From the NCBI GenBank assembly GCA_001784175.1, contig MFPR01000040.1, forward strand, positions 44,955 to 108,954: a stretch of DNA of 64,000 nucleotides, read 5' to 3'. This document shows, in pieces, positions 7,638-27,676 of the stretch. Position numbers and translations under genes: made by a program. The notes beneath the pieces were generated by a model. The model saw only the letters and a list, made by a program, of their open reading frames with translations. It did no database searches and was not told the DNA's origin. Within the stretch, counting starts at the first letter, position 1; each line of letters opens with the position of its first letter. Source of the DNA: Candidatus Lindowbacteria bacterium RIFCSPLOWO2_12_FULL_62_27 (GTDB taxonomy: Bacteria > Lindowbacteria > 2-12-FULL-62-27).

Positions 7638-10600
7638 TCCTCCTTGCCGCCGGAGCCGTGCTGCTGATGATGGAAACGGCGACTTCGGCAATCCAATTCG
7701 ACCGGCGCGCGCCCGAAGGGCTGGTCGGAAACGGCCGGTCGGTGGTGAAGGTCCGGCCGGGCGGTTATGAATTTTTTTCGGGCGGGAAAGCGTCGGGCCG
7801 CATCCGGGTTATGATCGGCGGGAAACGGCGTGAGATTGGCGCGGGGGATGTGCGGCGGTCGGAATTTTTCCCGGGCGGCGTCATCTATTCATTAAATATC
7901 GACGGCGTCGATCTCGACGTCCTGCACGGCGCGCTGAAGGAGGTCGCGTATGTCGCGGCGTTCCGCACGAGGGGTACGCCGCCGCCGGATGTTCAGATCG
8001 ATCTCGAGTCGACTGAAACGCCGGCGGTGTCTCCCTCCGGGCGATTGGACCTCTCGGGCAAGGGCGGGTTTCTTGCGGTTTCCACCGGGTCAGCGCCTCC
8101 GGCGCCCCAAGTGCCGGGGTCTCCGACGCCGGCCGATCCGTCCTATTCGACGAATTCCTGGGATGACCTGCGGGCTGCCGTTGAGGCGCCGTACCTGAAA
8201 GGATTTCAGGTCCGCACGCCGTCGCCGGCCGTCGACCGGGCAGCCCGGTTCTGCCAGTTTTTGCTGGACCTCGGATTTGACGGCCGGCTTCACGTCAGCG
8301 AACTTTTCCGCTGGCGCGACATCTGGTCGCGGGATCTCGGAACGGGTCTCGCGCCGGGCTCGCTGGTCGGCGGCCGGTTCGACGCCGCGCGCATCTCCAT
8401 CCAGTATGATCTCGCGCGATACAAAGCGGCCAACCCAAGAGGCCTGCGGATCACGGAGGACGCGTCCCAGGGCGGGTCGGCCGAAGGGACCGCGTGGCTG
8501 ACACGCGCCGTATGGCGCGATTACCTTTTGAGCGGCGACCGCGCGTTTCTCGCGGAAGCCGCCGGGACGTTGCGTCCGTGGGTGCGGGCGTGGATCGACC
8601 GGGACGCCGACGAAGACGGCCTCGTGATCGACGTCACCGAATGGATGGACCACTCGCGGTTCTTTCTCTTCCCGGACGGCGCCCTCGGGCTGTATTCGAA
8701 CGCGCTGTTCGCGGACCTCCTGGGAACGTTCTCGAAAATCGAAAAGGAACTAGGAGACGAAACCGCCGCCGCCGCCCGGCTCGATGCTTTGCGGCGGAAG
8801 ACCGCCCGCGCGATCAATGACGTTCTCTGGAACGAATCGGCCGGCGCGTACGATAATCTCTCGATCTTCGGGCGAAACGATCAGCGTCTCTCGTCGGCGG
8901 AAAACGCGCTCGCGGTGCTCGCGGGCGTCGCACCGCCCGACCGCGCCCGCCGCGCGCTCCAGACGGTGCGCGACCGGAACTGGCGCAAGGCCGGGTCCGT
9001 CACGATCGCGCCGGCGATGACGCATGTGGACGACAAGAACGACCAGAACGTCCGCGTCTGGCCGTGGTGGAACGCCGTCGAAGCCCGCGCGAGGTTCCGG
9101 ACGGGCGATACGGCGGGCGCCGTGCATCTGCTCGAAAAATGCGCGGCAACGCTGGAGGACGAACACTATCCCGGTCTCATCGAGGAACTGCTGACCCCGG
9201 AGGGCGTGACGGAAGGCGGCCACGCCTTTTTGAGCGCCGCCGGCACGTTCTTGGACGCGCTGTATGAAGGATTGCTCGGGATCGAGATTCTCGAAGCGGG
9301 TTGCGCGCGCATCCGCGTGTCGCCCCACACGCCCGACTGGAAAGCGTGGGAGGCCGCCGTGCCGCTGCCGGGCGGCGATCTCTCCGTGTCTTTCGCCGAC
9401 GGCGTTCTGCGCATCCGCGTGACCGACCCGCGGGTAAAAGTGGTGGAAGCGCCGGCGTCGGCAATTGTTGAGGGAGCGACGCGCGCTGATTTCTCTGTTT
9501 CTCCTGATCCGTCCGAATCTGTTTTCTCAGAATCCAAAATCCAAAATCCAAAATCCAAAATCTCCGACCCGAAGCCCCGCCGCGCCGCGCTCTTCTCCGA
9601 GCCCGGCATCCCGCGCTCGTCCGCCGCGGGCCTGCCCAAGCAGACCATCAACGCGGAGGCGCTCTTGACACTCGACCCCGCCCGGACGCCGGCCCTCGTG
9701 ATCGCCGGCAACGCTCTGCCGCGCCGGACGAAATCCGCCGGAGATGTGCAGAACGCGCTGGCGCGGTACCTGGACGGCGGCGGCGCGATCGTGTTTTTCG
9801 GCGCGACCATGCACGACCGCGGCACGATGGGTGAACACGGCGGCGTGATCGATTGGTACGAGCATCTCCCGCAACTGAAGTACGAGCCGCTGGCCGGCTG
9901 GCGGTTCTCGATCTCGCCGGATGGCCCGGCGGCGCCGCAGGACAAGGAGCACGGTCTGGCCAAAGGCTGGCACCGGCCGGACTTTGACGATCGCGAGTGG
10001 AAACCGATCCGCGTTCCCGGCTGGTGGGAGGACCATCTCGGCCGCGCGCAGGACGGATGGGGCTGGTATCGGACGGAGTTTCTTCTGCCCGAGTCCCGAA
10101 AAGGAAAAACGGTCATTCTGGATATTGGCCGGATCGATGATGACGACTGGATATTCGTAAACGGCGTTCCGGCCGGCTCGGACAAGGGCTGGCAGACGCG
10201 GCGGCTGTACCATCTGAAACCGGGCAGTCCGGCGCACGCGGCGCTGAACTTCGGCGGCCGAAACGTCGTGGCGGTCCAAGTCCTCGATTACGGTGGCGGA
10301 GGCGGCATGCATGCGGACCCGACAAAACTGGCGGTCGAAACGGACGAGTATTCGTGGCAGCCGATCAATCCCAAGACCGGCGTCGTCAGCGAGCAACCAG
10401 TGCGGCACGGCGTCGTGTCCTGGGGGCCGGGCGGAGACTTCTTCAATTCGTGGGAAACGTCCAGAGGCGCATTCGGATTCCGGATTGAAGGACGAAATGT
10501 CTCGTTCGATCCGGAAGGCCCTCTGAAGGGCCTCGCGCCGATCGCAATGACGGTCCATGAAGCCTTCACGGATTTCGCCGTCGCCCGGCCATGGCAATTC

Positions 10601-10780
10601 CAGCCGCTCGCCTTTACGGAAACACGCCGGCGGCTTCTTTACCCGGACAATGGCGAGCGCTACCCGTGCGCGGCCCGCGTGGTGAACACGAAAACCGGAG
10701 GTGAATTCATCCTCGTGCCTGCGTCGCTGGCGGCATCTCCGGCCGGACCTGAACTTCTGCAGAAACTCAGAATCCATTGA
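7634..10780 (+). CDS. six-hairpin (alpha/alpha)6 glycosidase-like protein (GDE_C/GH78/GH63-like region with a W-x-R-D motif) with a C-terminal GH2-N-like jelly-roll sugar-binding domain
   Basis: The ATG at 7634 overlaps the upstream stop (ATGA). N-terminal hydrophobic segment MILLAAGAVLLMM. Motif TAWLTRAVWRDYLLSGDRAF. C-terminal DFDDREWKPIRVPGWWEDHLG..GWGWYRTEF..ILDIGRIDDDDWIFVNG is the jelly-roll domain repeated across this window. It carries an in-frame PKSKIQN heptamer-repeat linker and an in-frame GSAPPAPQVPGSPTP element. Confidence 0.7.
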   Translation: MILLAAGAVLLMMETATSAIQFDRRAPEGLVGNGRSVVKVRPGGYEFFSGGKASGRIRVMIGGKRREIGAGDVRRSEFFPGGVIYSLNIDGVDLDVLHGALKEVAYVAAFRTRGTPPPDVQIDLESTETPAVSPSGRLDLSGKGGFLAVSTGSAPPAPQVPGSPTPADPSYSTNSWDDLRAAVEAPYLKGFQVRTPSPAVDRAARFCQFLLDLGFDGRLHVSELFRWRDIWSRDLGTGLAPGSLVGGRFDAARISIQYDLARYKAANPRGLRITEDASQGGSAEGTAWLTRAVWRDYLLSGDRAFLAEAAGTLRPWVRAWIDRDADEDGLVIDVTEWMDHSRFFLFPDGALGLYSNALFADLLGTFSKIEKELGDETAAAARLDALRRKTARAINDVLWNESAGAYDNLSIFGRNDQRLSSAENALAVLAGVAPPDRARRALQTVRDRNWRKAGSVTIAPAMTHVDDKNDQNVRVWPWWNAVEARARFRTGDTAGAVHLLEKCAATLEDEHYPGLIEELLTPEGVTEGGHAFLSAAGTFLDALYEGLLGIEILEAGCARIRVSPHTPDWKAWEAAVPLPGGDLSVSFADGVLRIRVTDPRVKVVEAPASAIVEGATRADFSVSPDPSESVFSESKIQNPKSKISDPKPRRAALFSEPGIPRSSAAGLPKQTINAEALLTLDPARTPALVIAGNALPRRTKSAGDVQNALARYLDGGGAIVFFGATMHDRGTMGEHGGVIDWYEHLPQLKYEPLAGWRFSISPDGPAAPQDKEHGLAKGWHRPDFDDREWKPIRVPGWWEDHLGRAQDGWGWYRTEFLLPESRKGKTVILDIGRIDDDDWIFVNGVPAGSDKGWQTRRLYHLKPGSPAHAALNFGGRNVVAVQVLDYGGGGGMHADPTKLAVETDEYSWQPINPKTGVVSEQPVRHGVVSWGPGGDFFNSWETSRGAFGFRIEGRNVSFDPEGPLKGLAPIAMTVHEAFTDFAVARPWQFQPLAFTETRRRLLYPDNGERYPCAARVVNTKTGGEFILVPASLAASPAGPELLQKLRIH
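8086..8134. repeat. second intragenic element family (CCGGGTCAGCGCCTCCGGCGCCCCAAGTGCCGGGGTCTCCGACGCCGGCC), in frame as ..GSAPPAPQVPGSPTPA..
   Basis: About 90% identical to 17636-17684. Partial copies at 14743-14764 and 27477-27504, all in the same translation frame. Confidence 0.8.
9530..9561. repeat. heptamer mini-element (CCAAAAT)x4, in frame as a ..SESKIQNPKSKIS.. linker
   Basis: aatccaaaatccaaaatccaaaatccaaaatc inside CDS 7634..10780. Confidence 0.9.
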
Positions 10781-10801
10781 AACGACAGGAGACGAATCCC
10801 T

Positions 10802-13800
10802 ATGAAAAATCTATGGCTGGTGCTTTTCATGACGTCGGTCGCTGCGGCCGTTGAGCCGGCTTCGGCAAAAACGGTTTCCGGAATCCCGGAGAGCCTCTCG
10901 GGGTACTGGTTCTACTGGTCCGACCCCGACGGGACCCTTCGGGCGACGGACATCCAGCAGAGGATGGCGCAGGGCGAGAAACGCAAGATGCTCATCCCAT
11001 CAAATTGGTCGAGGCACGATCGAGATTTACTGAATTACAACGGCGTCGTCTGGTTCGCCCGCGCGTTCAACGCCAAAAAACCACGGCTGACCGAGCGGCT
11101 CTTTCTGCAGTTTGACGGCGTCGATTACGAGGCGGACGTTTTCCTCAACGGCCGGCCGGTAGGACGGCACACCGGATATTTCGAGCCGTTTCGGATCAAC
11201 ATCACCGATACGGTCCAGGCGGGTGAGAACCTCCTGATCGTCCGCGTCAACAGCCCGAGGGACGAGGGATACGCCGACAAGAAAACTCTGATCAAGGGAA
11301 TCTTTGTTCATCACGACTGCCGCCCCGGGTCCAATTCCGGCCAGCAGAATCAGAACGAGCCCACCGGCGGCATCTGGGGAGATGTCCGGCTGGTCCGGAC
11401 GGGGCCGGTGGCGGTTGAGGGCGCGCGGATCATGACGGAACTCAAAGACGGCAAAGGCAGGATCACCGCGCGGTACCGGCTCCGCAACTACTCGGCCTCC
11501 ACGCAGTATCCGCGCCTGAATCTTTCCGTGGCCGGCAAAACCTTCGAGTCGACGCCGGTCAAGGGCCGCGCCAACGTCAAGATCAATCCCGGCGCGATGG
11601 AGGAAGCGGTCGTGACGCTGGACGTTCCCGACCCCCGCCTCTGGTGGACCTGGGACCACGGCCGGCCTGATCTCTATCGGGTCGTCGCCCAGCTCGTGTT
11701 CGAGGGCGTGGTGACGGAGACGCGCGAGGATGCGGTCGGGTTTCGGACCATCGAGTTCGACGAGAAGGCCCTCATCATGAAACTCAACGGCCGCCCCGTG
11801 TTTCACCGAGGTTCCAACTACATCGCGACGCAGTGGCTGGCCGGGTACGGCAGGGAACAGTTTCAAAAGGACATCGATCTCATGAAAGGCGCCAACCTTA
11901 ACTCGATTCGTGTCCACGCGCATGTTCTGCCCCACACGTTTTACGATCTCGCCGACGAGTCGGGCGTCCTCGTCTGGGCCGATTTCGCGCTCATCTGGGG
12001 ATACGACCCCTCCGAATCCTTCGCGCGCGATGCGCTCCGGCAGTACCGCGCGTTCATCGACGGCTGGTTTCACCATCCGTCCATCTGGCTCTGGTGCGCG
12101 CACAACGAAGGCAGCGCCAACGATCCGCTGAACATCCGGCTGGTCGAAATGGCCCGCAGTCTCGACCCCACGCGCGTGCACCTTAAAAACTCCGGCAAGT
12201 GGCCGCCCGGCCCGGGCGGCTGGGACGAACACGAGTATGCGGGGTGGTATGGGGGAAACTATTTGGAATTCGCGGACAAGCAGCATCAGTTCGTCACCGA
12301 ATACGGCGCCCAGGCTGCGCCGGCGGGCTTCGAAAAAATTCTCGCCTCGGGCCACCGCTGGCCGCCGGATCTGGACGACTGGCGTTACCATGATTTCCAG
12401 CTGACTGAAAATCTCCGGAACCTCGGCCCGCTGGAACTTTTCAACAGCGTCGCGGATTTTGTCGAAACCAGCCAGAAATACCAGTACGACCTGCTGAAAT
12501 TCTCGACAGAGGCGTATCGCCGGACAAAGTATCGCCCGCTCGGTGGCATCTACCACTTCATGTTCACCGAATGCTGGCCCGCCATGACCTGGGCGGTCGT
12601 CGATCACGAGCGCGCGCCCAAGCTCGGCTATCACGCGCTGCGCGACGCCATGGCGCCTGTGATTGTTTCTCTGGAAGTTCGCCGGCGCGAGGTTGCGCCG
12701 GGCGAAACGATTGATATCCCGGTCTGGGTCGTGTCCGACCTCGACGAACCCCTGAAGAACTGGCGCGTCCGGTTCGGCGTAGAGGGCGGCGAAGCGCAGA
12801 CATCGGAAGTCAGCTTGGGCGCGGACGCGGCCATGCAGGTCGCCGTTCTCAAAGTGACGGCGCCTGAAACGCCCGGCACGTCCGTTCGAATTTTCTCCGA
12901 ACTGTTTGACTCCGAATCCAAAATCCAAAATCCAAAATCCAAAATCTCAATGTCCGAGTGGGGTTTCGTCGTAAAGAGCGATCCCTTTCGGCTCGGCCAC
13001 TGGACCTTCCGCACCGGCGACGACATGGCTTGGGCGAAGGGCGACGCGGCGCCGGAGGGATTCAAGCCCATCAAGGTTCCCGGCAACTGGGAAAACGACG
13101 GGTATCCGGATTACGACGGATACGGCTGGTACCGCGCGACATTCGTCGTGCCGCCAGCGCACAAGGGAGAACTGCAACTCATGCTGGGGCCCGTCGACGA
13201 CGTGGACGAATTGTACGTCAACGGCGAGTTCGTGGGCCGGACGGGCCGGTTCCCGCCGAATTACGAGACGGCCTGGACCGCGGAACGCGCGTACATGATT
13301 CCGGAAAAATTGTTGCGGAAGGACCGCCCAAACGTGATCGCGATCCGCGTCTATGATTCTACCGGCGGCGGCGGGCCTTACAAGGGTCCCGTCAAACTGA
13401 TCGTTCCGGTCGGAGTCGATCTTGCGTCCGACCGGTGGCGGCTGAAACACGGGGACGATCCGGCGTGGAGCGATCCGGCCTTCAACGACAAGGATTGGAA
13501 ACGCGTCCGCGTGCCGCAGACGTGGGAGGGTACGCTGGGGGAAGTCGACGGATTTGGGTGGTATCGGTTGAAATTTGATGTCCCCCCCTCCGCGCTGCCG
13601 GCGGGCCCTCTGACGCTGACCATCGGCGCGGTCGATGACGTCGATGCGACGTATCTGAACGGCAAAAAAATCGGCCAGACCGGCGAGTTCCCGCCGTCGA
13701 CGGGCGGCGGCGCCACATGGACCACGATGCGGAGATACTTTTTGCCGAGAGACCTTTTGCGCGCGAAGGACAACGTCCTCGCGGTGCGCGTCTACGACGG

Positions 13801-13894: not shown

Positions 13895-14415
13895 AAAGCC
13901 GGAGATTTTGGATTTTGGATTTTGGATTTTGGATTTCAAACATTCCAAACATGATCTGGATCGTGCCGGCGCTCACGATCGGATGCGCCGCGCCGAAGGC
14001 CGATCTGCAGCGGCCCGACGTGACGATGCCCAAGCGCCTGGAAGTCGTCGGAGCGTCGGCGTCCGGCCAGGAGTCCGACGATGTGCGAGCGATGAATGCG
14101 TTCGACGGCGATGCGAAAACCCGCTGGTCGTCCCCGCATGCCGACCACCAGTGGCTGGTGGCGGATCTCGGGTCGGACCGCACCGTGATCGGTGTCAAGC
14201 TCGTGTGGGAGGCCGCGTTCGGAGAGGAGTATCGCGTGGAGGGATCCTTGAACAACGAGGATTGGTCCAAACTCGCAACGGTCCGGGGCGGGGACGGCGA
14301 GGAGGACCAGATCGAGTTTCGCCCGGCCAAGCTGCGGTACCTGCGGATCAACTGTGTCCGCCGCGGCACGGAGTATGGATTTTCCCTGTATGAGGTCCAA
14401 GTCTGGGGATTTTAA
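13891..14415 (+). CDS. small secreted/lipoprotein-like single F5/8 type C (discoidin) domain protein
   Basis: The ATG at 13891 overlaps the upstream stop (ATGA). N-terminus MKSRRFWILDFGFWISNIPNMIWIVPALTIGC (heptamer element plus signal/lipobox-like segment). Discoidin motifs NAFDGDAKTRWSS..HQWLVADLG..GFSLYEVQVWGF. Confidence 0.7.
   Translation: MKSRRFWILDFGFWISNIPNMIWIVPALTIGCAAPKADLQRPDVTMPKRLEVVGASASGQESDDVRAMNAFDGDAKTRWSSPHADHQWLVADLGSDRTVIGVKLVWEAAFGEEYRVEGSLNNEDWSKLATVRGGDGEEDQIEFRPAKLRYLRINCVRRGTEYGFSLYEVQVWGF
13904..13936. repeat. heptamer mini-element (GATTTTG)x4.7, opposite orientation, at codons 4-15 of CDS 13891..14415 (RFWILDFGFWI)
   Basis: gattttggattttggattttggattttggattt starts 10 nt after the start codon. 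Confidence 0.9.
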
Positions 14416-14431
14416 AAAACATGTGCGCCAT

Positions 14432-14543
14432 TCACCTCCTCTCCCCCCGCAGGGGGGAGAGGATTGAGGTGAGGGGGGTGGCCGGCGTCGATAAAATCCT
14501 GCCACCCTCACCCCAACCCTCTCCCGCCAGAGGCGGGAGAGGG
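14432..14543. repeat. two tandem GGGAGAGG-family hairpin elements in opposite orientations (CCTCTCCCCCC gca GGGGGGAGAGG, and CCCTCTCCCGCC aga GGCGGGAGAGGG preceded by CACCCTCACCCCAACC)
   Basis: They fill the 146-bp gap between CDS 13891..14415 and the ATG at 14562. They are also in frame with the ATG at 14421. Confidence 0.85.
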
Positions 14544-14561
14544 GGGACACAGTTGCGAAAC

Positions 14562-17500
14562 ATGATATTTTGGAGTCTGAGCTGTCTCCTCCTGTCATCG
14601 GCCACGGTCGCGGACGCGGTCGAGTCGCTCCGGAACGTGTCGCTGTCCGCCAAGCCAACCGCGTCTTCTCAGTTCGATGCCGCGTCGGGCCCGCGCAACG
14701 CCATCGATGCGTCGCGGCGATCCACCTGGATCCCCGCGACCGCCGGGTCAGCGCCTCCGGCCGGAGAGGAGTGGCTGCTCCTTGAATTCGACCGCGAGGA
14801 AAACCTGCGGCGCGCGGTCCTGAACTGGGAGTTTTCCCTCAAGGCGAACTGGCGCATCGAAATTTTGCGCGGCGGGATGTGGACCGAAGCGGCGCGCGGC
14901 GTCAAGGACGGAACCGCAACGCGGATCGTCGAACTTGGAGGAAAGCGCGCGGACAAGGTGAAGCTCGTCTGCTCGGGCGCCACGCCCATGGCCTGCTCGC
15001 TGGCGGACTTCCAAGTCTGGGCGGTCGAATCGGATGTGTTTGGCGGGACGTTGGAACCGGCGGCACCGGCGCCGCCAAAATCTGAACCGGCGAAACCCCA
15101 GCCGTCCGCACCAGTCCCTGTCTTCGTCCCCGTTCCGGCGCCACCCAAGCCTCCGAAACCCGCTCCTCCACCACCGGCCGTTCCGAAACGCGAACCGGCG
15201 CCGATCCTGTCCCGGGTTCAGGCTCCGTCCAAACTCCTCGCGCCCCCGCCGCCGGCCGCAAAGAAAGCGAGCGCGCCCAGCCCCAGCCCGATTTTGCCGA
15301 TCCCTTCTCCGGTTTCTCCCCCCTTTACAAGGGGGGATCAAGGGGGGTCCGGTCTCGGGTCACGGCCGCCGGCCGACGTTCGGCCGCATCTCACGACGCT
15401 TGTAGAATCGTTTGACAATATATTGGAAAGCGTGCCCTTGGGCGCCGCGCCGGTGGCGGAGGCGTCCGAAGGCTGCGTGATGCAGGGCGCCGTGACGGGT
15501 GGCGGCTGGGGCCGGGGCGGAAGGGGCGAGGCGTACCGGGCGCGGTTCGTGGTCGTGCCGGACGGCGTCGCGACGCTGAGCCAGAAATTGAAATCGTCGG
15601 CCCCGAGCGGATGGTCGGAACTCTCCTTCTGGGTCAGAGGGTCATGGGCGGCCGGCGCCCCGCTCGAAGTCGTTCTCGCGGACGACGCAAACCAACAGGC
15701 GGCCTTGGCGGCGCCCGGAACGGAAGGCGGCAGTGCGCTCTGGCGCCAGATTAAAATCCCAGCCGGCGCCGTCAAGAAAATCAATCGCGACCGCATCAAG
15801 TCCTATATCCTCCGGTTCACGCCGGCGCATCAGGCGGGAGAAGTCTACATCGACGACATTTATCTCCACGGCGGCGCCGCACCGGGGAAGCCCCGCTCCT
15901 CCGCGGCGGATCCAAAGAAGGCTTCCGCCTCCATCTCTCCAGAACCTCCGGCCTCTATCCCTGTTTCCGACCTCGATCCGCCAGAATCTAAAATCCAAAA
16001 TCCAAAATCCAAAATCTCAAATGTTTTACCGGAGGTTCGCCCCTTCACCTACGACCCCAAAGACCGGCAGGCGGTCCACGAGATGCTGTTGGCGGCCGCC
16101 ATGAACGACCCGAAAACATCGGAGGGCCTCTCGGACGACGAATTTCTTGATCTGGTCGAACGCCGCGCGTTTTTGTATTTCTGGTATGGCGCCAATCCCG
16201 AAAACGGGATCACGCTGGATGGCGCGAAAAACTGGAAACCGGACGATGACCTCGACTGGAATTCGATCGCGGCGGTCGGGTTCGGCCTCACCGCCATCTG
16301 CATCGGCGCCGAACGCGGGTGGATCTCCAAAGAGATGGCTTACGAGCGGTGCCGCGTGACGCTCGACGCCTACTTGAACAAAATACAGAACAACCACGGG
16401 TTTTATTATCATTTCACCAATCGCAAGGGCATGAACGACCGCAATACCGAGCTTTCGTCGATCGACTCCCTCCTCATGTTTTGCGGGATGCTCTTCGCCG
16501 CTGAGTATTTCAAGAGCACGGAGGTCGAGAAAATGGCCCGGCAGATTTTTGAGCGGGTCGACTGGCGGTGGATGCACGACAACCGTAAGTTCGCGTCAAT
16601 GGCGGTGGACCCCGGCGGTAAATTTAATCCCGCAAGCTGGGACCGGCACTGCGAAGGGCAGATCCTGTCCATCCTCGAACTCGGGCATCCCCAAAACATG
16701 CCGACAGACCTCTGGTTCGACATGCCGGAACAATACGGCACATATCGGGGGTACCGCAGCCTCAACCAGGGGCCGCTCTTTACGTTTCAGTTTCCGTCCA
16801 ACTGGATCGATTTCAGGGACCGCAACGACGGGGCCGTCAATTTCTGGGAGAACGGGATCGAAGCGACGCTGGCCAACCGCTTTTACGCCATTGAAAAAAT
16901 GCCTGAACGCAAGGGGTACGGCCCGAACTCGTGGGGATTCACCGCCGGCGATTTCCCCGGCGGATACCATGCGTTTGCCGCTCCGCCCTCTTATCCGGGC
17001 GAGGACGGCACCGTCACGATCAACGCGGCGGGCGGATCTGTCATATTCACGCCGCATCTGTCCACCCAGGCGCTCCGATGGATGTACGACAACCTGCACG
17101 ACAAAGTCTGGGGCAAGTACGGGTTTACGGACGGATACAACCTCGACAAGAACTGGTCCTGCGACCGCGTGATCGGGATTGGCACAGGACCCGTTCTCCT
17201 CTCCATTGAAAATCACCGCACCGGATTCGTCTGGAAATATTTCATGCAGAACGACTATGTCAAACGCGGCATGGAACGCGTTGGCTTTAAGGACGAGCCG
17301 CGCCGGACCGCCAAAGCCCGGCCGCTGGACCTTGCCGGATACTGGAAATGGAAACCCGGCGACAACAAAACGTGGAGCAAGCCCGAGGTCGACGACTCCG
17401 GCTGGCGCGACATGTACGCGCCCGACAAGTGGGAAGTACAGCTCACGCAGGACGGCGACCGCAAGATGGCCGAGTACGACGGGTTCGGCTGGTACCGCCG

Positions 17501-17867
17501 CCGCTTCACCGTGCCGCTGGATACGTGGGAATCCTGGAAAGGTCAGGACCTGTTTTTCCACGCCGGCGCGATCGACGACGCCGACGAGGTCTTCCTGAAC
17601 GGCGAGAAGATCGGTTCGACCGGATCGATGTCCGCCGGGTCAGCGTCTCCGACGCCCCAAGTGTCGGCGTCTCCGACGCCGACCGGCGGGGAGAGCGCTT
17701 GGGAAAAACCGCGCAAGTACGCAGTCCCGCGCAAGCTCGTCAAGGTCGGCGAAGACAACGTGATCGCCGTGCGTGTCTTCGACGCCGCCGGCGGCGGCGG
17801 CCTCTGGATGCGCCCGGTCGAGCTGGGCCCGTTCCTGCCGCTCGATTTCAAACCCTGGAAGCTATAA
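14562..17867 (+). CDS. secreted multidomain glycoside hydrolase: discoidin-like domain, Pro-rich linkers, CBM-like domain, GH144-like (alpha/alpha)6 catalytic domain and a C-terminal jelly-roll domain
   Basis: Signal peptide MIFWSLSCLLLSSATVADA at the ATG at 14562. An in-frame ATG at 14421 would add a 47-aa extension made entirely of two hairpin repeat elements, and this start remains possible. Catalytic motifs LSDDEFLDLVERRAFLYFWYG and IENHRTGFVWKYFMQ. An 80-residue P/A/K-rich linker. In-frame PKSKIQN linker, CCCCCCTT/AAGGGGGG hairpin and GSASPTPQVSASPTP element. Confidence 0.75.
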   Translation: MIFWSLSCLLLSSATVADAVESLRNVSLSAKPTASSQFDAASGPRNAIDASRRSTWIPATAGSAPPAGEEWLLLEFDREENLRRAVLNWEFSLKANWRIEILRGGMWTEAARGVKDGTATRIVELGGKRADKVKLVCSGATPMACSLADFQVWAVESDVFGGTLEPAAPAPPKSEPAKPQPSAPVPVFVPVPAPPKPPKPAPPPPAVPKREPAPILSRVQAPSKLLAPPPPAAKKASAPSPSPILPIPSPVSPPFTRGDQGGSGLGSRPPADVRPHLTTLVESFDNILESVPLGAAPVAEASEGCVMQGAVTGGGWGRGGRGEAYRARFVVVPDGVATLSQKLKSSAPSGWSELSFWVRGSWAAGAPLEVVLADDANQQAALAAPGTEGGSALWRQIKIPAGAVKKINRDRIKSYILRFTPAHQAGEVYIDDIYLHGGAAPGKPRSSAADPKKASASISPEPPASIPVSDLDPPESKIQNPKSKISNVLPEVRPFTYDPKDRQAVHEMLLAAAMNDPKTSEGLSDDEFLDLVERRAFLYFWYGANPENGITLDGAKNWKPDDDLDWNSIAAVGFGLTAICIGAERGWISKEMAYERCRVTLDAYLNKIQNNHGFYYHFTNRKGMNDRNTELSSIDSLLMFCGMLFAAEYFKSTEVEKMARQIFERVDWRWMHDNRKFASMAVDPGGKFNPASWDRHCEGQILSILELGHPQNMPTDLWFDMPEQYGTYRGYRSLNQGPLFTFQFPSNWIDFRDRNDGAVNFWENGIEATLANRFYAIEKMPERKGYGPNSWGFTAGDFPGGYHAFAAPPSYPGEDGTVTINAAGGSVIFTPHLSTQALRWMYDNLHDKVWGKYGFTDGYNLDKNWSCDRVIGIGTGPVLLSIENHRTGFVWKYFMQNDYVKRGMERVGFKDEPRRTAKARPLDLAGYWKWKPGDNKTWSKPEVDDSGWRDMYAPDKWEVQLTQDGDRKMAEYDGFGWYRRRFTVPLDTWESWKGQDLFFHAGAIDDADEVFLNGEKIGSTGSMSAGSASPTPQVSASPTPTGGESAWEKPRKYAVPRKLVKVGEDNVIAVRVFDAAGGGGLWMRPVELGPFLPLDFKPWKL
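14743..14764. repeat. partial copy (5' 22 nt) of the second element family, in frame as ..TAGSAPPAGE..
   Basis: ccgggtcagcgcctccggccgg. Confidence 0.6.
15316..15350. repeat. variant hairpin element CCCCCCTT tac AAGGGGGG plus ATCAAGGGGGGTCC, in frame (..SPPFTRGDQGGSG..)
   Basis: An 8-bp perfect stem inside the Pro-rich linker of CDS 14562..17867. Confidence 0.7.
15985..16016. repeat. heptamer mini-element (CCAAAAT)x4 (first unit CTAAAAT), in frame as a ..PPESKIQNPKSKIS.. linker
   Basis: Inside CDS 14562..17867, between the Pro-rich region and the catalytic domain. Confidence 0.9.
17636..17684. repeat. second intragenic element family, in frame as ..GSASPTPQVSASPTPT.., interrupting a jelly-roll domain relative to its paralogs
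   Basis: Paralogous domains have ..TGRFPPNYETAW.. or ..TGEFPPSTGGGATW.. where this copy has TGSMSAGSASPTPQVSASPTPTGGESAW. Confidence 0.8.
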
Positions 17868-17870: not shown

Positions 17871-18407
17871 GTGGAACCGAAAACTTGGGGCGTGAGCGTG
17901 ATTGTTGCGCTCCTCATGAACATCCTGGGTCTTGGCGCCGGGCTTGAGCCGCCCCGGTATGAGATGTCACTCGAAGGGCAGTGGAAGCTGTCGGCGGGGG
18001 ACAACTACGAATGGAAATCGCCCGAGTTCAATGATGAGAGCTGGAAAAACGCGCAGGTGCCCGCCGCTTGGGAGTCCCAGGGGCTGACCGATTACAACGG
18101 ATACGGCTGGTACCGCTACACGTTCGTCGTTCCCAAAGAGTGGGAAAAAACGGCGCGTGGGTTCATCCTCGACGCGGGACAGATCGACGACGAGGACATC
18201 ACGTTCGTGAACGGCCATGACGTCGGCTCCTCCTCGGGCTGGGACGTGTCCCGGTCCTACGGCGTCCCCAAATCTCTCATCAAGTTCGGCGAAAAAAATG
18301 TGATCGCCATCCGCGTCTACGACCGCACCGGCGGCGGCGGGATCCACAAAGGCCCGGTGAAGCTACGCAGCGGCGTCGTCGGCCGGTTCGACGTCGAAGG
18401 CTATTGA
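17871..18407 (+). CDS. small secreted stand-alone jelly-roll (GH2-N-like sugar-binding) domain protein, paralog 1
   Basis: 178 aa. Signal peptide, then ..KSPEFNDESWKNAQVPAAWESQGLTDYNGYGWYRYTFVVP..ILDAGQIDDEDITFVNG..IAIRVYDRTGGGG. About 75% identical to the product of 19468..20001. Confidence 0.7.
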   Translation: MEPKTWGVSVIVALLMNILGLGAGLEPPRYEMSLEGQWKLSAGDNYEWKSPEFNDESWKNAQVPAAWESQGLTDYNGYGWYRYTFVVPKEWEKTARGFILDAGQIDDEDITFVNGHDVGSSSGWDVSRSYGVPKSLIKFGEKNVIAIRVYDRTGGGGIHKGPVKLRSGVVGRFDVEGY

Positions 18408-19341: not shown

Positions 19342-19393
19342 AGCATTCCACATATTATTGATAGCTGTTAGAGCGTTTGGTTTGCCTTAAATT

Positions 19394-19424
19394 ATCCCTC
19401 TCCCGTCCTATGCGGGAGAGGGAT
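19394..19424. repeat. GGGAGAGG-family hairpin (ATCCCTCTCCCG tcctatg CGGGAGAGGGAT), intergenic, terminator-like
   Basis: A 12-bp perfect stem between the lectin-like gene and paralog 2; followed by AAAAGGGG rather than a T-run. Confidence 0.7.
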
Positions 19425-19467
19425 AAAAGGGGAATGGATATGACAAGAAGGGAGGGACTTTATAGAT

Positions 19468-20001
19468 ATGGCGCCAAAAACTTGTGGTATTGGTGTAATT
19501 GTTTCGCTTCTGATCAGTATTCTCGGATTAGGAACCACCTTTGAGCAACCGAAATTCGAGATTGGCTTGGAAGGACAGTGGTTGTTGTCGGCAGGGGACA
19601 ATTACGAATGGAAGTTGCCCGAGTTTCATGCCGAGGGCTGGAAGACCACGCAGGTGCCTGCCGCGTGGGAGTCCCAAGGACTGACCGATTACAACGGGCA
19701 TGGCTGGTACCTGTACACCTTTGTCGTCCCCAAAGAGTGGGAGAAAACAGCCCGCGAGTTTATCCTCGACATGGGCCAGATTGACAACGAAGATGTCACG
19801 TATGTAAACGGCCAAGACGTCGGTTCTACCAGCGGCTGGAACGTACTCCGTTCCTACGGGATACCGAAACCCCTTGTGAAATTCGGAGAAAAAAACGTCA
19901 TCGTGGTCCGCATCTACGACCGCACAAGCGGCGGCATTCTTCGGGGTCCGATCAAACTCCGCAGCGGCGGCGTTGGCCGATTCGACGTCGAAGGCTATTA
20001 A
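19468..20001 (+). CDS. small secreted stand-alone jelly-roll domain protein, paralog 2 (lower GC than paralog 1)
   Basis: 177 aa, co-linear with the 17871..18407 product (..EWKLPEFHAEGWKTTQVPAAWESQGLTDYNGHGWYLYTFVVP..). Shine-Dalgarno-like AAGGGAGGG upstream. Confidence 0.7.
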   Translation: MAPKTCGIGVIVSLLISILGLGTTFEQPKFEIGLEGQWLLSAGDNYEWKLPEFHAEGWKTTQVPAAWESQGLTDYNGHGWYLYTFVVPKEWEKTAREFILDMGQIDNEDVTYVNGQDVGSTSGWNVLRSYGIPKPLVKFGEKNVIVVRIYDRTSGGILRGPIKLRSGGVGRFDVEGY

Positions 20002-20026
20002 AATCAAAGCCGACAATTCCAAAACG

Positions 20027-25014: not shown

Positions 25015-26456
25015 GAATACTTGTTTCGTCGCTCCTCGTGGTCTGTGCCTGTTTCAACGCGTTTGCCGGCGGCGTCGGCACCACCGGCGCGAATTTCCTG
25101 AAAATCCCCGCCGGCGCGCGCGGGATGGCGGTGGGCGGCGCGTTCGGTGCGGTGGCCGACGACGCGTTCGGCGCGTACTGGAACCCGGCCGGGATCGTGG
25201 AGACGGCGCGCGCCCAGACAGGATTCAGCCACGTCGAATGGTTGGAGGGGATCAGTTACGAACACGTCAGCGCGGTGGTCCCGCTCGGCCGCGGCCGCAT
25301 CACCTCCCTGCCGCTTCTGGTCGACGATTTCGACGACGGCGCCGATCCCAACGCCCTCGGCGGGCCCATCGGCGCATGGTCCGATCAGGACGCCGGCGGA
25401 TCGTCCATCCTCACCACCGGATATCGCGCCGAAAGACGCGGGCGGTCTTATCGCGTCACCTATCTGGTCCAACCCAGGCCGGACGGCAAGCCCGGTGCGG
25501 CCGGATGGTGGATCGGGATGGAGGGCCGGAACGTGAAGAGCTACCGGTTTCTGGCGTTTCGCATCCGCGGCGCCTACGGCGGGGAGACCGTGACCATCGG
25601 CCTGAAGGACAAAAAGCAGGTTGAAACGCGGGTGGCGCTCTCCGCCTACGGCGGCGTGACGGCGTCCTGGCGAGAGGTGCTGATCCCGCTGGCCGATTTC
25701 AAGAACGTCGATCTTACCCAGCTTGACAATATATCGCTGGCCTTCGCCGGGTCCGGCGCGGTGTATCTCGACGACCTCATGTTTTCCGGCAAGCGGTCCA
25801 GCGTCCACGGCCTCGGGGTTTCCGCCGGGTATCTCACGTCCGGCAAAATCCCGAGAACGGTCGAGATCGCCGCGTTTCCGTTTTATCAGGAGGTCGGCAG
25901 TTTCGATGTCGGCGCGTCGGTCCTCGGCGTCACGTACGGCCGGGGATTCCTGCTCGGCCCCGTCTATATGCCGGCCGGATTCACCCTGAAATACATCGGC
26001 GAGAATCTCGCCGAGGAACACGCCTCCGGATACGCCCTCGATGTCGGGCTTCTCCTCTCCCCCGCCGACAGCCGCCGGTTCCGGTTCGGCGTGTCCATCC
26101 AGAACATCGGATCGATGAAAGCCTTTGTCCAGGAAGCCGACCCGCTGCCGCTCAACGTCAAAACATCGTTTCTCCTCAAGTCCGATTCCGGCCGCACCCT
26201 CTTCTCGGCCGACATGGACCTTCCCGTCGACGAAGAACCCAGGTTCCGGCTGGGCATCGAGTCGTGGCTCTTCAGATTCTTCAGCCTGCGCGCCGGGTAT
26301 GCCTTCGGCGAAAAAGGCGAAGGACTGCGCGGCGCCGCCGCCGGCCTGGGCGTTCAACTCGGCGGCGTCGTGATCGATTATGCGTTTACCCCGTGGGGCG
26401 ATCTGGGCGACGCCCACCGGTTCTCGGCCACGCTGGTGTGGGGACAGGCCCGATGA
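25011..26456 (+). CDS. PorV/PorQ-family-like outer-membrane protein with an inserted CBM-like module
   Basis: The ATG overlaps the upstream stop (ATGA). The N-terminal region ..GANFLKIPAGARGMAVGGAFGAVADDAFGAYWNPAGI resembles the conserved start of PorV/PorQ-family proteins. A CBM-like insertion (DDFDDGADPNALGG..AVYLDDLMFS) is homologous to modules in the upstream cargo protein. The C-terminal ..WGDLGDAHRFSATLVWGQAR is barrel-like. Confidence 0.55.
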   Translation: MRILVSSLLVVCACFNAFAGGVGTTGANFLKIPAGARGMAVGGAFGAVADDAFGAYWNPAGIVETARAQTGFSHVEWLEGISYEHVSAVVPLGRGRITSLPLLVDDFDDGADPNALGGPIGAWSDQDAGGSSILTTGYRAERRGRSYRVTYLVQPRPDGKPGAAGWWIGMEGRNVKSYRFLAFRIRGAYGGETVTIGLKDKKQVETRVALSAYGGVTASWREVLIPLADFKNVDLTQLDNISLAFAGSGAVYLDDLMFSGKRSSVHGLGVSAGYLTSGKIPRTVEIAAFPFYQEVGSFDVGASVLGVTYGRGFLLGPVYMPAGFTLKYIGENLAEEHASGYALDVGLLLSPADSRRFRFGVSIQNIGSMKAFVQEADPLPLNVKTSFLLKSDSGRTLFSADMDLPVDEEPRFRLGIESWLFRFFSLRAGYAFGEKGEGLRGAAAGLGVQLGGVVIDYAFTPWGDLGDAHRFSATLVWGQAR

Positions 26457-27676
26457 GAAGGAGATTTTGGATTTTGGATTTTGGATTTTGGATTGTCGGG
26501 ATACTTCTGTGCTGGAGCCTCTCGGCCGTCGCCGCGCAGCCGCCCGCTGCGACGCTCCTGTTTGCGCCGCCTGGCGCCGGGAGCGTCGGTATGTCGGCCG
26601 CCGGCGCCGAGGACATCGGGTCGGCCCTCTGGCACAACCCGGCCGGACTTGTGCATCTGCGGTACCGCGAGATCGAGGCCGGGTTTGGCAGCAACTCGAA
26701 CGGATTCGACGCGCACGCCGGATATTTCGACCCGGGTAAACCCATTCTCGGTTTGCCGATGGCGTTCCGCTTCGACGCGCTGACCTCCAACGTCCTTCTC
26801 AGCGACACCAGCCCGGATCGGAAGTTCGGCGACGGCCATCTGATCGCCGTTTCCGCCGGCGCCGGTTTTTACGCCGCTTCGCGGTTGTCGCTCGGTGCGG
26901 CCACGCGGTTCTTCCATCTGAAAGCTCCGGCCGGAAACGGCGTTGGCGCCGTCGCGGATCTCGGCGCGATCTACCGCCCCGGCGAATTGATCCGATTCTC
27001 ATACGGCATCAAAAACCTTGGCTTCGTATCCAGCATTCCCGGTAGCCAGGGCGACATGCCCGTGACCCAGCTTTTGGGCGTTCACGTCAAATCCCCCGCG
27101 CGGGGCAACATCGCGATGGACGCCGTCCTGGGCTGGCCGGCCGACCTCAAGGGCTTCTGGAGTGTGGCCGGGACCTACCGGTTCACGGAGTCGTTGGGCA
27201 TGCGATTTCATCTGGCCGAGGCCAAAGACATCCCGGTCATCGACGGGCGCGGGATTGGATTCTTTCTAAACACATATTGGGGCAAGTTCGATCTGTCGTA
27301 TCAGTTGGCGGAGCTTGGAAATTTCCTCAGGTTCACCTGGATCCGCCGATCGAGCCGGCCCCCTGAAACCTACCCACCCCTCCTCCGGAGCCGGCCGCGT
27401 CCCCCCCCCGCCGCGGGCTCTATTATATATGGAGAGGCGGAAGGTGAACCTGCGAAGGAAAAGACCGGGTCGCCGGCCGGATCAGCGCCTCCGGCGCCGC
27501 CCGGGCGGATCAAGGATGCCGAAGGCACCCCGGCGGTGGCGACGCCGGTGGACGCGGAACCGCCGTCCACGGAGGAGTTTTTCCGTCCGGCCCCCAAGCG
27601 TCCTTCTGTGCCCGAAGGTCCGGCCGCCGACGCCGACGCCCCGGCGGCCGTCGCTGTCCCGGTGGACGAACGATGA
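26453..27676 (+). CDS. second PorV/PorQ-family-like outer-membrane protein with a Pro/Ala-rich low-complexity C-terminal tail
   Basis: ATGA overlap with the upstream gene. N-terminus MRRRFWILDFGFWIVGILLCWSLSAVAA (heptamer element plus signal peptide). ..GSVGMSAAGAEDIGSALWHNPAGL motif. The C-terminal 100 aa are P/A/E-rich and include an in-frame GSAPPAPP element. Confidence 0.5.
   Translation: MRRRFWILDFGFWIVGILLCWSLSAVAAQPPAATLLFAPPGAGSVGMSAAGAEDIGSALWHNPAGLVHLRYREIEAGFGSNSNGFDAHAGYFDPGKPILGLPMAFRFDALTSNVLLSDTSPDRKFGDGHLIAVSAGAGFYAASRLSLGAATRFFHLKAPAGNGVGAVADLGAIYRPGELIRFSYGIKNLGFVSSIPGSQGDMPVTQLLGVHVKSPARGNIAMDAVLGWPADLKGFWSVAGTYRFTESLGMRFHLAEAKDIPVIDGRGIGFFLNTYWGKFDLSYQLAELGNFLRFTWIRRSSRPPETYPPLLRSRPRPPPAAGSIIYGEAEGEPAKEKTGSPAGSAPPAPPGRIKDAEGTPAVATPVDAEPPSTEEFFRPAPKRPSVPEGPAADADAPAAVAVPVDER
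26463..26487. repeat. heptamer mini-element (GATTTTG)x3.5 at codons 4-12 of CDS 26453..27676 (RFWILDFGFWI)
   Basis: gattttggattttggattttggatt follows ATGAGAAGGA. Confidence 0.9.
27477..27504. repeat. partial copy of the second element family, in frame as ..GSAPPAPPG.. within the low-complexity tail of CDS 26453..27676
   Basis: ccggatcagcgcctccggcgccgcccgg. Confidence 0.6.

What the first reader, a model, noticed from the sequence alone, without database searches (positions are those of the whole stretch)
8086..27504. Second short repeat family that always lands in the same frame, encoding GSAPPAPQVPGSPTP-like linkers, once in the middle of a folded domain
CCGGGTCAGCGCCTCCGGCGCCCCAAGTGCCGGGGTCTCCGACGCCGGCC (8086) and a 90%-identical copy (17636), plus two partial copies (14743, 27477), are all read in the same frame as (A/T)GSA(P/S)P(A/T)P. 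The 17636 copy replaces the FPPNY loop of a jelly-roll domain that is intact in four paralogs. This argues for a DNA-level insertion tolerated by the fold, not a conserved linker.
Basis: seen in the sequence. Interest (0 to 1): 0.6.

Follow-up and report, generated by a model that had tools for sequence, protein, structure and literature searches.

The report
Tiny hairpin repeat inserted inside genes
The "linker" motif is a 48-base, two-hairpin selfish-type DNA repeat that is scattered through the genomes of these groundwater bacteria (Candidatus Lindowbacteria and relatives) and has inserted, without breaking the reading frame, into loops of unrelated proteins, much like the palindromic elements known from Rickettsia.

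Summary
The window holds two full copies (8084-8136, 17634-17686), two in-frame shortened copies (14742-14764, 27476-27504) and a probable fifth copy in reverse orientation (52417-52445).

The repeat is not a protein linker. The same 48-nt unit occurs at 99 distinct sites in 670 kb of related metagenome and MAG DNA. Its consensus is GCCGG-R-TCA-GCGCC-TCC-GGCGC-CCCAAGT-GCCGGCGTC-TCC-GACGCCGGC-CGG, bounded by GCCGG on both sides. It occurs in both orientations and is read in all five stop-free frames. Host genes are unrelated: GluRS, TrmD, CheR, GT9, GH116, A2M.

The two hairpins show strong compensatory covariation (96.5% paired, 8 of 14 pairs with double changes, 0 of 500 shuffles as high). 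Copies A and B differ at six positions. All six are non-synonymous, and four of them form two compensatory stem pairs.

Homologues lack the insert exactly: a 16-residue gap for A, a 6-residue gap for C, and no insert at B's position in 20 homologues. An AlphaFold model keeps the jelly roll and leaves only the insert disordered.

"Always the same frame" holds only for the four + strand copies in this window. Mobilisation (probably single-strand, HUH/Y1-type, in trans) is inferred, not shown. Closest known: Rickettsia RPEs and intragenic REPs.

The parts
8084..8136 (+). Copy A. Full 48-nt unit plus flanking repeat (ACCGG...GCCGA). Read TGSAPPAPQVPGSPTPA in the MGH1-like/six-hairpin glycosidase gene (7634-10780). 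HP1 is 8093-8105; HP2 is 8113-8133, with one stem mismatch.
   Evidence: nhmmer E 1.9e-14. Exact 16-residue gap in all 9 homologues. Fold.
17634..17686 (+). Copy B. Full unit (GCCGG...ACCGG) read AGSASPTPQVSASPTPT, inserted in a loop of the C-terminal jelly-roll domain of the glucoamylase-family gene. HP1 is 17643-17655; HP2 is 17663-17683 (perfect 9-bp stem).
   Evidence: PDB 7kmm_A aligns as two stretches that abut at residue 324. The only AF2 segment with pLDDT below 50 is residues 130-145; the insert is residues 128-143.
14742..14764 (+). Copy C. An 18-nt in-frame remnant (GCCGG + GTCAGCGCCTCCG + GCCGG) read (A)GSAPPA(G), in the W...QW loop of the N-terminal F5/8 type C domain of the same gene as B. 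Consistent with a 30-nt deletion between the internal CCGGC repeats of the unit.
   Evidence: 19/19 nt. (23/23 nt match to the derived form; none in the reversed-sequence null). Exact 6-residue insertion relative to 8 window paralogues.
27476..27504 (+). Copy D. A 24-nt one-hairpin derivative read (A)GSAPPAPP(G) in the Pro/Ala-rich C-terminal tail of a putative outer-membrane barrel gene (26474-27676; weak DUF5723 match).
   Evidence: 27/29 nt match to the form expected from deleting one 24-nt sub-repeat.
52417..52445 (-). Copy E (probable). A one-hairpin 24-nt derivative in reverse orientation, read PAGIGDAG on the + strand in ORF 49879-54009 (discoidin/six-hairpin glycosidase family).
   Evidence: 27/29 nt to the derived consensus; none in the null; nhmmer E 0.2 only. 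The homologue loop here varies in length, so insertion is not proven.
14421..17867 (+). Host gene of copies B and C: F5/8C domain, Pro-rich region, PF10091 glucoamylase-family catalytic domain, C-terminal jelly roll. The true start is probably ATG 14562 (MIFWSL... signal peptide).
7634..10780 (+). Host gene of copy A (1048-aa product as called in public assemblies).

Best explanation
The motif is a copy of a small, GC-rich, dispersed palindromic DNA repeat of the REP/RPE type, not a protein-level linker.

Anatomy. The unit is 48 nt (16 codons). It consists of two head-to-tail 24-nt sub-repeats, each forming a hairpin with a TCC loop: HP1 is GCGCC-TCC-GGCGC and HP2 is GCCGGCGTC-TCC-GACGCCGGC. 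The unit is bounded on both sides by GCCGG.

Why it survives inside genes. The unit is a multiple of three and is stop-free in five of six frames, so an insertion into a gene adds 16 small, Gly/Ser/Ala/Pro-rich, disordered residues. Copies persist where this lands in a loop, a tail or an inter-domain segment.

The window copies. A and B are independent 16-codon insertions from different subfamilies of the element. C, D and probably E are in-frame deletion derivatives of 18 or 24 nt, formed by recombination between the unit's internal direct repeats.

Shown: dispersal, both orientations, five frames, hairpin covariation, absence from homologues, and preservation of the fold in a model.

Inferred (about 30% confidence): copies are made through a single-stranded DNA intermediate. 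A hairpin-recognising HUH/Y1 transposase (IS200/IS605- or RAYT-like), supplied in trans, would insert the unit next to a (G)CCGG target. Later tandem amplification and decay would follow by slippage.
For: Real repeat: (0 matches expected by chance).

Family census:
- The 24-nt core pattern hit 82 metagenome stretches, plus 4 loci of one MAG.
- nhmmer found 122 hits, or 99 unique contexts, in 670 kb; 100 hits are near full length.
- One assembly, Ga0156236, has 39 unique sites on 18 contigs totalling 2.75 Mb.
- Tandem 48-nt arrays are visible.

Frames. Of the 99 contexts, 28 have coding sequence in one frame on both sides for 80 codons. They use +0 GSAPPAPQVPASPTPAG (4), +1 RPDQRLRRPKCR (1), +2 GRVSASGAPSAGVSDAGR (17), -0 PAGVGDAGTWGAGGADPA (3) and -1 PASETPALGAPEALIR (3). 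None uses the stop-containing frame.

Hosts are unrelated: GluRS catalytic domain, TrmD, GH116, A2M, CHASE kinase, PD-(D/E)XK nuclease, IS91-type transposase, CheR, GT9.

Hairpins: 96.5% of cells paired against 87.6% in shuffles. 8 of 14 pairs have double changes in 61 cells, with 0/500 shuffles as high. Slid controls pair at 23-53%. DNA folds reach -16 to -19 kcal/mol, z -1.9 to -3.4.

A versus B: 11/11 conserved residues share the codon (P about 4e-5). Four of the six differences are two compensatory stem pairs.

Insertions relative to homologues: 16 aa; 6 aa.

Model: pLDDT 86.8, pTM 0.81, with the only segment below 50 being the insert.

A Y1/RAYT-like gene exists in a related assembly, 3.1 kb from an element copy.
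Against: - No empty-site/filled-site polymorphism was found. All duplicated loci carry the element, and the six available strains of the window species are at least 99.88% identical. Mobility is therefore inferred from distribution only.
- The flanking GCCGG is invariant, so it cannot be told apart from part of the element or a fixed target. It is not a classical variable target-site duplication.
- The only RAYT-like gene seen scores below NCBIfam's cutoff (60.8 vs 80 bits) and is flanked by a different inverted repeat, not by this element.
- Frame usage is very uneven (17 of 28 in +2), which is unexplained.
- Covariation counts cells, not events. Subfamilies are shared between loci, so the number of independent compensatory events (roughly a dozen pair types) is smaller than 61.
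- Five of six stop-free frames is what about 75%-GC sequence gives by chance, so it is not evidence of adaptation.
Confidence: 0.85

Rival explanations
1. The repeat spreads without any dedicated enzyme. Microhomology-mediated template switching or ectopic gene conversion at GCCGG(CCGG) motifs copies the hairpin unit from one site to another. Hairpin 'covariation' would then reflect quasi-palindrome correction, a mutational process, rather than selection for a protein-recognised structure.
For: The left flank repeats up to 9 nt of the unit's 3' end (GCCGGCCGG). Tandem arrays and in-frame 18/24-nt deletion derivatives show that slippage and recombination between internal repeats do happen. No cognate transposase was found next to the element.
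Against: About 100 sites lie in unrelated sequence contexts with sharp, constant boundaries. Many copies in one assembly are identical (15 sites carry one of the two most common 53-mers, across several assemblies). Both observations are more typical of an enzyme-catalysed, end-defined process. Subfamilies with linked changes in both hairpins recur at several loci and in several assemblies, as expected for master-copy lineages.
Confidence: 0.2
2. The unit is a host-selected functional DNA or RNA motif, for example an mRNA-stabilising or decay-blocking stem-loop, a gyrase or nucleoid-protein site, or a transcription pause signal. Intragenic copies would be by-products.
For: Strong conservation of pairing. 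Two thirds of copies lie at gene ends, between genes or in non-coding DNA, as for classical REPs. REPs are reported to act in mRNA stabilisation and gyrase binding (PMC3733652).
Against: There is no Rfam match and no U-tract for termination. At least 28 of the 99 sites lie deep inside genes, including GluRS and TrmD, where a regulatory stem-loop has no obvious role. Both orientations occur.
Confidence: 0.1
3. It is a conserved Pro/Ser/Thr-rich protein linker of carbohydrate-active enzymes, kept similar by selection on the peptide or by gene conversion among paralogues.
For: In the window the four + strand copies share one frame and encode P/S/T/A-rich peptides in secreted glycosidase-type proteins.
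Against: There are zero synonymous differences but six non-synonymous ones between A and B. The unit is read in five frames and both orientations in unrelated cytoplasmic enzymes. B and C sit inside domains, not between them. Homologues lack the unit.
Confidence: 0.02
4. It is an assembly or sequencing artefact, such as an adapter, a chimera or a collapsed repeat.
For: One locus (L104) has two partial copies flanking a run of N, which is an assembly gap at the repeat.
Against: Identical window sequence appears in six independent assemblies from ENA and NCBI. Copies occur in JGI, ENA and NCBI data, with sequence variants that preserve pairing, and always preserve the frame inside genes.
Confidence: 0.01

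Closest known systems
Rickettsia palindromic elements (RPE-1 to RPE-10; Ogata et al. 2000, as summarised in PMC10969869 and PMC3733652)
   Same: A dispersed palindromic repeat with no coding capacity of its own. It is inserted in frame into many unrelated, including essential, protein-coding genes and is translated as a short extra peptide. It sits in loops or at the surface, so the host fold is retained. No transposase has been identified for either.
   Different: This unit is 48 nt, against about 100-150 bp for RPEs. It is very GC-rich, made of two head-to-tail hairpins, and read in five frames. It occurs in free-living groundwater bacteria (Candidatus Lindowbacteria and relatives), not obligate intracellular Rickettsiales. 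Sequence similarity to RPEs was not tested, and none is evident by eye.
REP / REPIN elements and intragenic GTAG- or CGTC-tagged REPs (Di Nocera et al. 2013, PMC3733652; Bertels & Rainey 2011, PMC3116915)
   Same: Short stem-loop repeats in tens to hundreds of copies, mostly at gene ends or between genes. Subfamilies differ by compensatory stem changes. PMC3733652 reports intragenic copies encoding 20-30 residues, most numerous in Opitutus terrae and R. conorii.
   Different: There is no terminal GTAG or CGTC tag. The two hairpins are head-to-tail, an arrangement that paper calls negligible among REP dimers, rather than inverted as in REPINs. At least 28 of the 99 sites lie deep inside genes. 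The one RAYT-like gene seen is flanked by another repeat.
IS200/IS605-derived non-autonomous elements (PATEs) and single-strand 'peel and paste' transposition (PMC6006769)
   Same: A hairpin lies near each end and there are no terminal inverted repeats. The unit always abuts the same short sequence, (G)CCGG, as expected for insertion 3' of a fixed tetra- or pentanucleotide.
   Different: It is far smaller than described PATEs. No cognate TnpA was identified. This is a resemblance in mechanism only and remains untested.
Pro/Thr-rich inter-domain linkers of carbohydrate-active enzymes
   Same: In the frame used in this window the peptide (GSAPPAPQVPGSPTP) looks like such a linker. Copy D and the L104 copy do sit in a tail or between domains.
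   Different: The conservation is at the DNA level. Other frames give unrelated peptides, and copies B and C are inside domains.

Membership tests
Rickettsia palindromic elements (RPE) | Multi-copy dispersed repeat able to form a stable palindromic/hairpin structure | tested here: met
   99 unique sites. Two hairpins with covariation. Fold z-scores of -1.9 to -3.4.
Rickettsia palindromic elements (RPE) | In-frame insertion in unrelated protein-coding genes, absent from homologues | tested here: met
   (hosts). (gaps of exactly 16 or 6 residues, or no insert in homologues).
Rickettsia palindromic elements (RPE) | Host fold retained, insert exposed in a loop | tested here: met
   AF2 model of the jelly roll has pLDDT 86.8, and only residues 130-145 fall below 50. 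This is a model, not an experiment.
Rickettsia palindromic elements (RPE) | Size about 100-150 bp, and membership of one of the ten RPE sequence families of Rickettsiales | tested here: not met
   The unit is 48 nt. The host is Candidatus Lindowbacteria. Direct sequence comparison with RPE consensus sequences was not run.
REP / REPIN-RAYT | Conserved GTAG (or CGTC) tetranucleotide at one end of the stem-loop | tested here: not met
   The consensus has no terminal GTAG. CGTC occurs only inside the HP2 stem next to the loop. The definition is from PMC3733652.
REP / REPIN-RAYT | RAYT gene flanked by the same repeats | tested here: inconclusive
   One RAYT-like gene (L135:667-1662; NF047646 at 60.8 bits, below the 80-bit cutoff; PF01797 E 2.5e-7) is flanked by a different inverted repeat. 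Complete genomes were not available.
REP / REPIN-RAYT | REPIN architecture: two REPs in inverted orientation forming one long hairpin | tested here: not met
   HP1 and HP2 are head-to-tail with the same TCC loop.
REP / REPIN-RAYT | Predominantly extragenic location | tested here: inconclusive
   At least 28 of 99 sites lie deep inside genes. 16 show no coding sequence on either side. The rest lie at gene ends or between genes. The classification uses a codon-usage heuristic, not a gene caller.
MITE | Terminal inverted repeats plus a variable target-site duplication | tested here: not met
   The ends are a direct repeat (GCCGG...GCCGG) that is the same at nearly all sites. No TIR was found beyond the GGCC/CCGG palindromes.
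IS200/IS605-type non-autonomous element (PATE-like) | Subterminal hairpins at both ends, no TIR, fixed short target, no TSD | tested here: inconclusive
   The hairpins and the constant (G)CCGG flank are compatible. The cleavage sites and the enzyme are unknown.
IS200/IS605-type non-autonomous element (PATE-like) | Mobilised by a cognate TnpA (HUH/Y1) in trans | not testable with these tools
   This needs complete genomes and biochemistry.
Protein-level P/T-rich linker | Peptide conserved while synonymous sites vary; located between domains | tested here: not met
   0 synonymous against 6 non-synonymous differences. Five frames are used. Copies B and C are inside domains.

The most novel reading that the evidence does not exclude
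The unit would be the smallest autonomous-looking transposition substrate yet seen in bacteria. It would be a 48-nt, two-hairpin, frame-neutral element, still active in Lindowbacteria-like groundwater bacteria, and mobilised as single-stranded DNA by a trans-acting HUH enzyme next to (G)CCGG. By seeding 16-residue disordered loops and linkers, sometimes amplified in tandem, into essential enzymes and surface glycosidases, it would be a continuing source of new protein segments. It would also act as a natural 'insertion scan' of permissive sites in protein folds.
Probability: 0.25. Interest if true: 0.75.

Novelty: new variant of a known kind. Interest (0 to 1): 0.6.

Why it matters
- Scope of the phenomenon: in-frame colonisation of genes by palindromic selfish DNA is best known from Rickettsia, with scattered REP cases elsewhere. 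Here it is widespread in an uncultivated, free-living lineage and involves a much smaller unit.
- Annotation: apparent Pro/Ser-rich "linkers", "GRVSASGAPSAGVSDAGR" or "PEALIR" segments and low-complexity loops in these genomes are repeat insertions. They should not be treated as conserved protein features.
- Protein tolerance: the sites form a natural catalogue of positions where folds (jelly roll, discoidin, GluRS, TrmD, CheR) tolerate 16 extra residues.
- Biochemistry: the two covarying hairpins with fixed ends give a concrete, testable substrate for single-strand HUH transposase experiments.

Tried and rejected
- Genome-wide scan with a 20-nt core (RCCGGRTCAGCGYCTCCGRC). Most of the 109 stretches found were chance matches, because the reverse complement encodes the common peptide PEALIR/TLIR in high-GC genomes. 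Only the 4 loci from MAG CAZHRJ01 were informative.
- Empty-site search. Flanks of every copy were BLASTed against all fetched DNA, and only identical filled duplicates were found. The six strains of the window species are 99.88-100% identical, so there is no polymorphism to use.
- Transposase search. This gave one weak hit, confirmed as Y1_Tnp/RAYT-like but flanked by another repeat. No link to this element was found.
- Viral contigs: no match. Rfam: no match. Literature on Lindowbacteria: nothing on repeats. One literature search was swamped by 'retinal pigment epithelium' hits.
- Diversity-generating retroelement and CRISPR readings were considered and dropped. The A/B differences are not adenine-specific, and the copies are dispersed rather than arrayed with spacers.
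- RNA- or protein-level excision (intron or intein) was considered. It is unlikely because the stop-containing frame is never seen among the 28 deep intragenic sites and all shortened coding copies are multiples of three.
- Copy E (52417-52445): the homologue alignment could not prove insertion because that loop varies in length.


Full report
**1. The observation**

A second copy lies at 17635-17684, with 43/47 nt identical in the BLAST alignment and 44/50 overall. Shorter matches lie at 14743-14761 (19/19 nt) and 27477-27498 (21/22 nt), with BLAST E-values of 1e-5 to 6e-5 in the 64-kb window.

All four are read in one frame: TGSAPPAPQVPGSPTPA, AGSASPTPQVSASPTPT, TAGSAPPAGEE and PAGSAPPAPPG. 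The host ORFs are 7520-10780, 14421-17867 (twice) and 26264-27676.

The window is 100% identical to an ENA metagenome contig. It is 99.96% identical to NCBI MAG contig MFPQ01000037.1 (GCA_001782795.1). NCBI names proteins identical to the window's as Candidatus Lindowbacteria bacterium. The region is rich in glycoside hydrolases: GH2, PF10091 glucoamylase-family, MGH1-like and F5/8C domains.

**2. Peptide or DNA?**

A and B are 11/17 identical as peptide but about 88-91% identical as DNA. All six nucleotide differences change the amino acid. All 11 conserved residues use the same codon, including TCA (5% of Ser codons in this window), TCT (7%), CAA (17%) and GGG (19%). The joint probability from the window's codon usage is about 4e-5.

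Four of the six differences are two compensatory pairs in two hairpins. GCGCC-TCC-GGCGC in A corresponds to GCGTC-TCC-GACGC in B. The outer C-G pair of the second stem in A corresponds to T-A in B. This is the signature of a structured DNA element, not of a selected peptide.

**3. The family outside the window**

A 20-nt core scan of one genome per species returned mostly chance hits, because its reverse complement encodes PEALIR. Four loci came from one MAG, CAZHRJ01, including a 47/50 copy.

A more specific 24-nt pattern (TCAGCGYCTCYGRCGCYCCAAGTG) matched 82 metagenome stretches. A profile built from these found 122 hits, or 99 unique contexts, in 670 kb. Of the 122 hits, 100 are near full length. 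Of the 99 contexts, 39 are in one genome-like assembly (Ga0156236), on 18 contigs totalling 2.75 Mb.

Several of these loci also carry the window's other repeat family (GGATTTT heptads), so they are relatives of the window organism.

The consensus is GCCGG-R-TCA-GCGCC-TCC-GGCGC-CCCAAGT-GCCGGCGTC-TCC-GACGCCGGC-CGG. The repeating unit is 48 nt and GCCGG is present on both sides. Tandem arrays with a 48-nt period occur in L143, L144, L165, L176 and L189.

**4. Structure**

Measured on 65 distinct copies, the two proposed stems behave as follows:
- 96.5% of cells are paired, against 87.6 ± 0.4% when partners are shuffled.
- 8 of 14 pairs show changes on both sides, in 61 cells (10.2 expected; 0/500 shuffles reach this).
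- Pairing drops to 23-53% when the partner columns are slid.

Several pair types recur, for example GC/AU/CG at columns 34-46 and UA/GC/CG at 37-43, so roughly a dozen independent compensatory events are involved. Many of the 61 cells are nevertheless inherited within subfamilies.

As single-stranded DNA the consensus folds into exactly these two hairpins (-19.3 kcal/mol, z -3.4). Copies A and B do the same. Both hairpins have the same TCC loop and the same orientation, so the unit is a head-to-tail pair of 24-nt sub-repeats.

**5. Genomic context**

A codon-usage log-odds score was trained on 68 long ORFs. It correctly recovers the known frames of the window copies.

By this score, 28 of the 99 unique sites have coding sequence in one and the same frame for 80 codons on both sides. 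A further 16 have no clear coding sequence on either side. The rest lie at gene ends or between genes.

The intragenic copies use all five stop-free frames and both orientations:
- +0, GSAPPAPQVPASPTPAG: 4 sites. This is the frame used in the window.
- +1, RPDQRLRRPKCR: 1 site.
- +2, GRVSASGAPSAGVSDAGR: 17 sites.
- -0, PAGVGDAGTWGAGGADPA: 3 sites.
- -1, PASETPALGAPEALIR: 3 sites.

The sixth frame contains a stop and is never seen.

The hosts are unrelated:
- the glutamyl-tRNA synthetase catalytic domain
- TrmD
- a GH116 glycosidase
- an alpha-2-macroglobulin bait-region domain
- a CHASE sensor kinase
- a PD-(D/E)XK nuclease
- an FG-GAP protein
- an IS91-type transposase
- CheR, with about 15 extra residues relative to PDB 5ftw
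- a GT9 glycosyltransferase

This excludes a protein-level linker and paralogue gene conversion.

**6. The window copies as insertions**

*Copy A.* All nine homologues (30-59% identity over the aligned region) show a gap of exactly 16 residues where the window protein has SAPPAPQVPGSPTPAD.

*Copy B.*
- In the alignment of seven window jelly-roll paralogues, the insert lies between 'VNGxxVGSTG' and 'AWxxxRxY'. Three paralogues have PPNY/PPST/PPAF there and three have short loops.
- None of 20 homologues of the whole protein has the insert. The four closest have a short loop.
- The solved sialate O-acetylesterase 7kmm_A aligns as two stretches that abut at residue 324, leaving 22 unmatched window residues.
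- Removing 48 nt between the two CCGG restores ...GSMSAGGESAW....
- An AlphaFold2 model of the domain has mean pLDDT 86.8 and pTM 0.81. The only segment below 50 is residues 130-145, and the insert is residues 128-143.

*Copy C.* It is an exact 6-residue insertion relative to eight window F5/8C paralogues. It has the form GCCGG + 13 nt + GCCGG, which is the unit minus 30 nt between its internal CCGGC repeats.

*Copy D.* It matches, at 27/29 nt, the one-hairpin form expected from deleting one 24-nt sub-repeat. It lies in a disordered C-terminal tail.

*Copy E.* A fifth, reverse-oriented one-hairpin form at 52417-52445 also matches at 27/29 nt. It reads PAGIGDAG in ORF 49879-54009. Its loop varies in length among homologues, so insertion is only probable.

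All shortened coding copies are multiples of three, as expected if frame-breaking derivatives are purged.

**7. Mechanism**

Shown: this is a dispersed, end-defined, hairpin-constrained DNA unit that enters genes and is tolerated in loops.

Not shown: how it moves.
- No filled/empty polymorphism is available.
- The invariant GCCGG on both sides fits two readings: insertion next to a fixed short target, as in IS200/IS605-type single-strand transposition, or microhomology-mediated copying. It does not fit a variable target-site duplication.
- A Y1/RAYT-like gene exists in Ga0156236, 3.1 kb from a copy. It is below NCBIfam's cutoff and is flanked by a different, GTAG-containing inverted repeat.

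I therefore put only about 30% on trans-mobilisation by an HUH/Y1 enzyme and about 20% on enzyme-independent template switching. Host-selected function of the hairpins remains possible for the extragenic copies.

**8. Comparison with known elements**

The behaviour matches Rickettsia palindromic elements (in-frame, translated, tolerated insertions in many unrelated genes; review PMC10969869). It also matches the intragenic REPs reported in Opitutus terrae, R. conorii and others (PMC3733652).

It is not a member of either family as defined:
- It is three times shorter than RPEs and occurs in a different phylum.
- It lacks the GTAG/CGTC tag of REPs.
- Its hairpins are head-to-tail, not inverted as in REPINs.
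- No cognate RAYT was found.
- It has no terminal inverted repeats, so it is not a MITE.

Rfam has no match, viral contigs have none, and the literature on Lindowbacteria does not mention repeats.

**9. Verdict**

'Always the same frame' is a local accident of four copies. It is a previously undescribed, very compact variant of a known phenomenon. It is interesting for protein-evolution and mobile-DNA specialists but does not overturn any paradigm.

Noticed in passing
window 13901-13949, 26460-26508, 31489-31537, 34115-34149 (+); about 9536-9562, 12920-12946, 15990-16016, 47515-47541 (reverse): A second dispersed family: arrays of the heptad GGATTTT. In reverse orientation it is translated as ESKIQNPKSKIS inside ORFs 7520-10780 and 14421-17867. 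In forward orientation it reads RFWILDFGFWI at the N-terminus/signal region of gene 26474-27676. Elsewhere it is intergenic. It is also present in related loci L120, L137, L147, L161, L193 and L195.
   Followed up: partly
window 14435-14545: A REPIN-like pair of inverted hairpins (TCCTCTCCCCCC-GCA-GGGGGGAGAGGA and CCCTCTCCCGCC-AGA-GGCGGGAGAGGG; 44-nt arms, 82% complementary) lies just upstream of the likely true start (ATG 14562) of the glucoamylase-family gene. Public gene calls translate it as ...LLSPRRGERIEVRG...PSPQPSPARGGRGG.
   Followed up: partly
window 15317-15337: A perfect 9-bp hairpin, TCCCCCCTT-TAC-AAGGGGGGA, lies inside the long Pro-rich low-complexity region (about aa 210-330) of ORF 14421-17867 and reads SPPFTRGDQGG. 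It may be a third repeat family embedded in coding sequence.
   Followed up: no
L135 585-650, 667-1662, 1660-1730: A RAYT-like Y1 transposase gene (PF01797; NF047646 at 60.8 bits, below the cutoff) is flanked by inverted repeats that contain GTAG and G-rich heptads (GGCTTGG...). These recall the GGATTTT heptad family rather than the double-hairpin unit.
   Followed up: partly
L176 3356-3502 and about 5271-5321: Seven copies lie in one 6.7-kb locus. A 48-nt tandem array sits inside one ORF (GRISASGAPSAGVSDAGRISRSAAPSAGVSDAGR...). Reverse-orientation copies sit in another ORF (PAGVRDAGTWGAGGADPAGVRDAG...).
   Followed up: partly
L191 about 1283-1332: An IS91-type (Y2_Tnp + Zn_Tnp_IS91) transposase ORF itself carries an in-frame copy of the element.
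   Followed up: no
L104 6997-7173: Two identical partial copies with identical left flanks bracket a run of N. This looks like an assembly break caused by the repeat, at the C-terminus of an ORF ending ...TGSAPPAPTP*.
   Followed up: no
window 45163-45750: A 294-nt tandem duplication (87% identical), with a third, more diverged copy near 46038-46297, lies inside ORF 44667-48329. These are probably repeated protein domains.
   Followed up: no
window 17871-18407 and 19468-20001: Two small stand-alone ORFs (178 and 177 aa) consist only of the same jelly-roll domain found at the C-terminus of the neighbouring glycosidases. They are 75% identical to each other at the DNA level over 300 nt.
   Followed up: no
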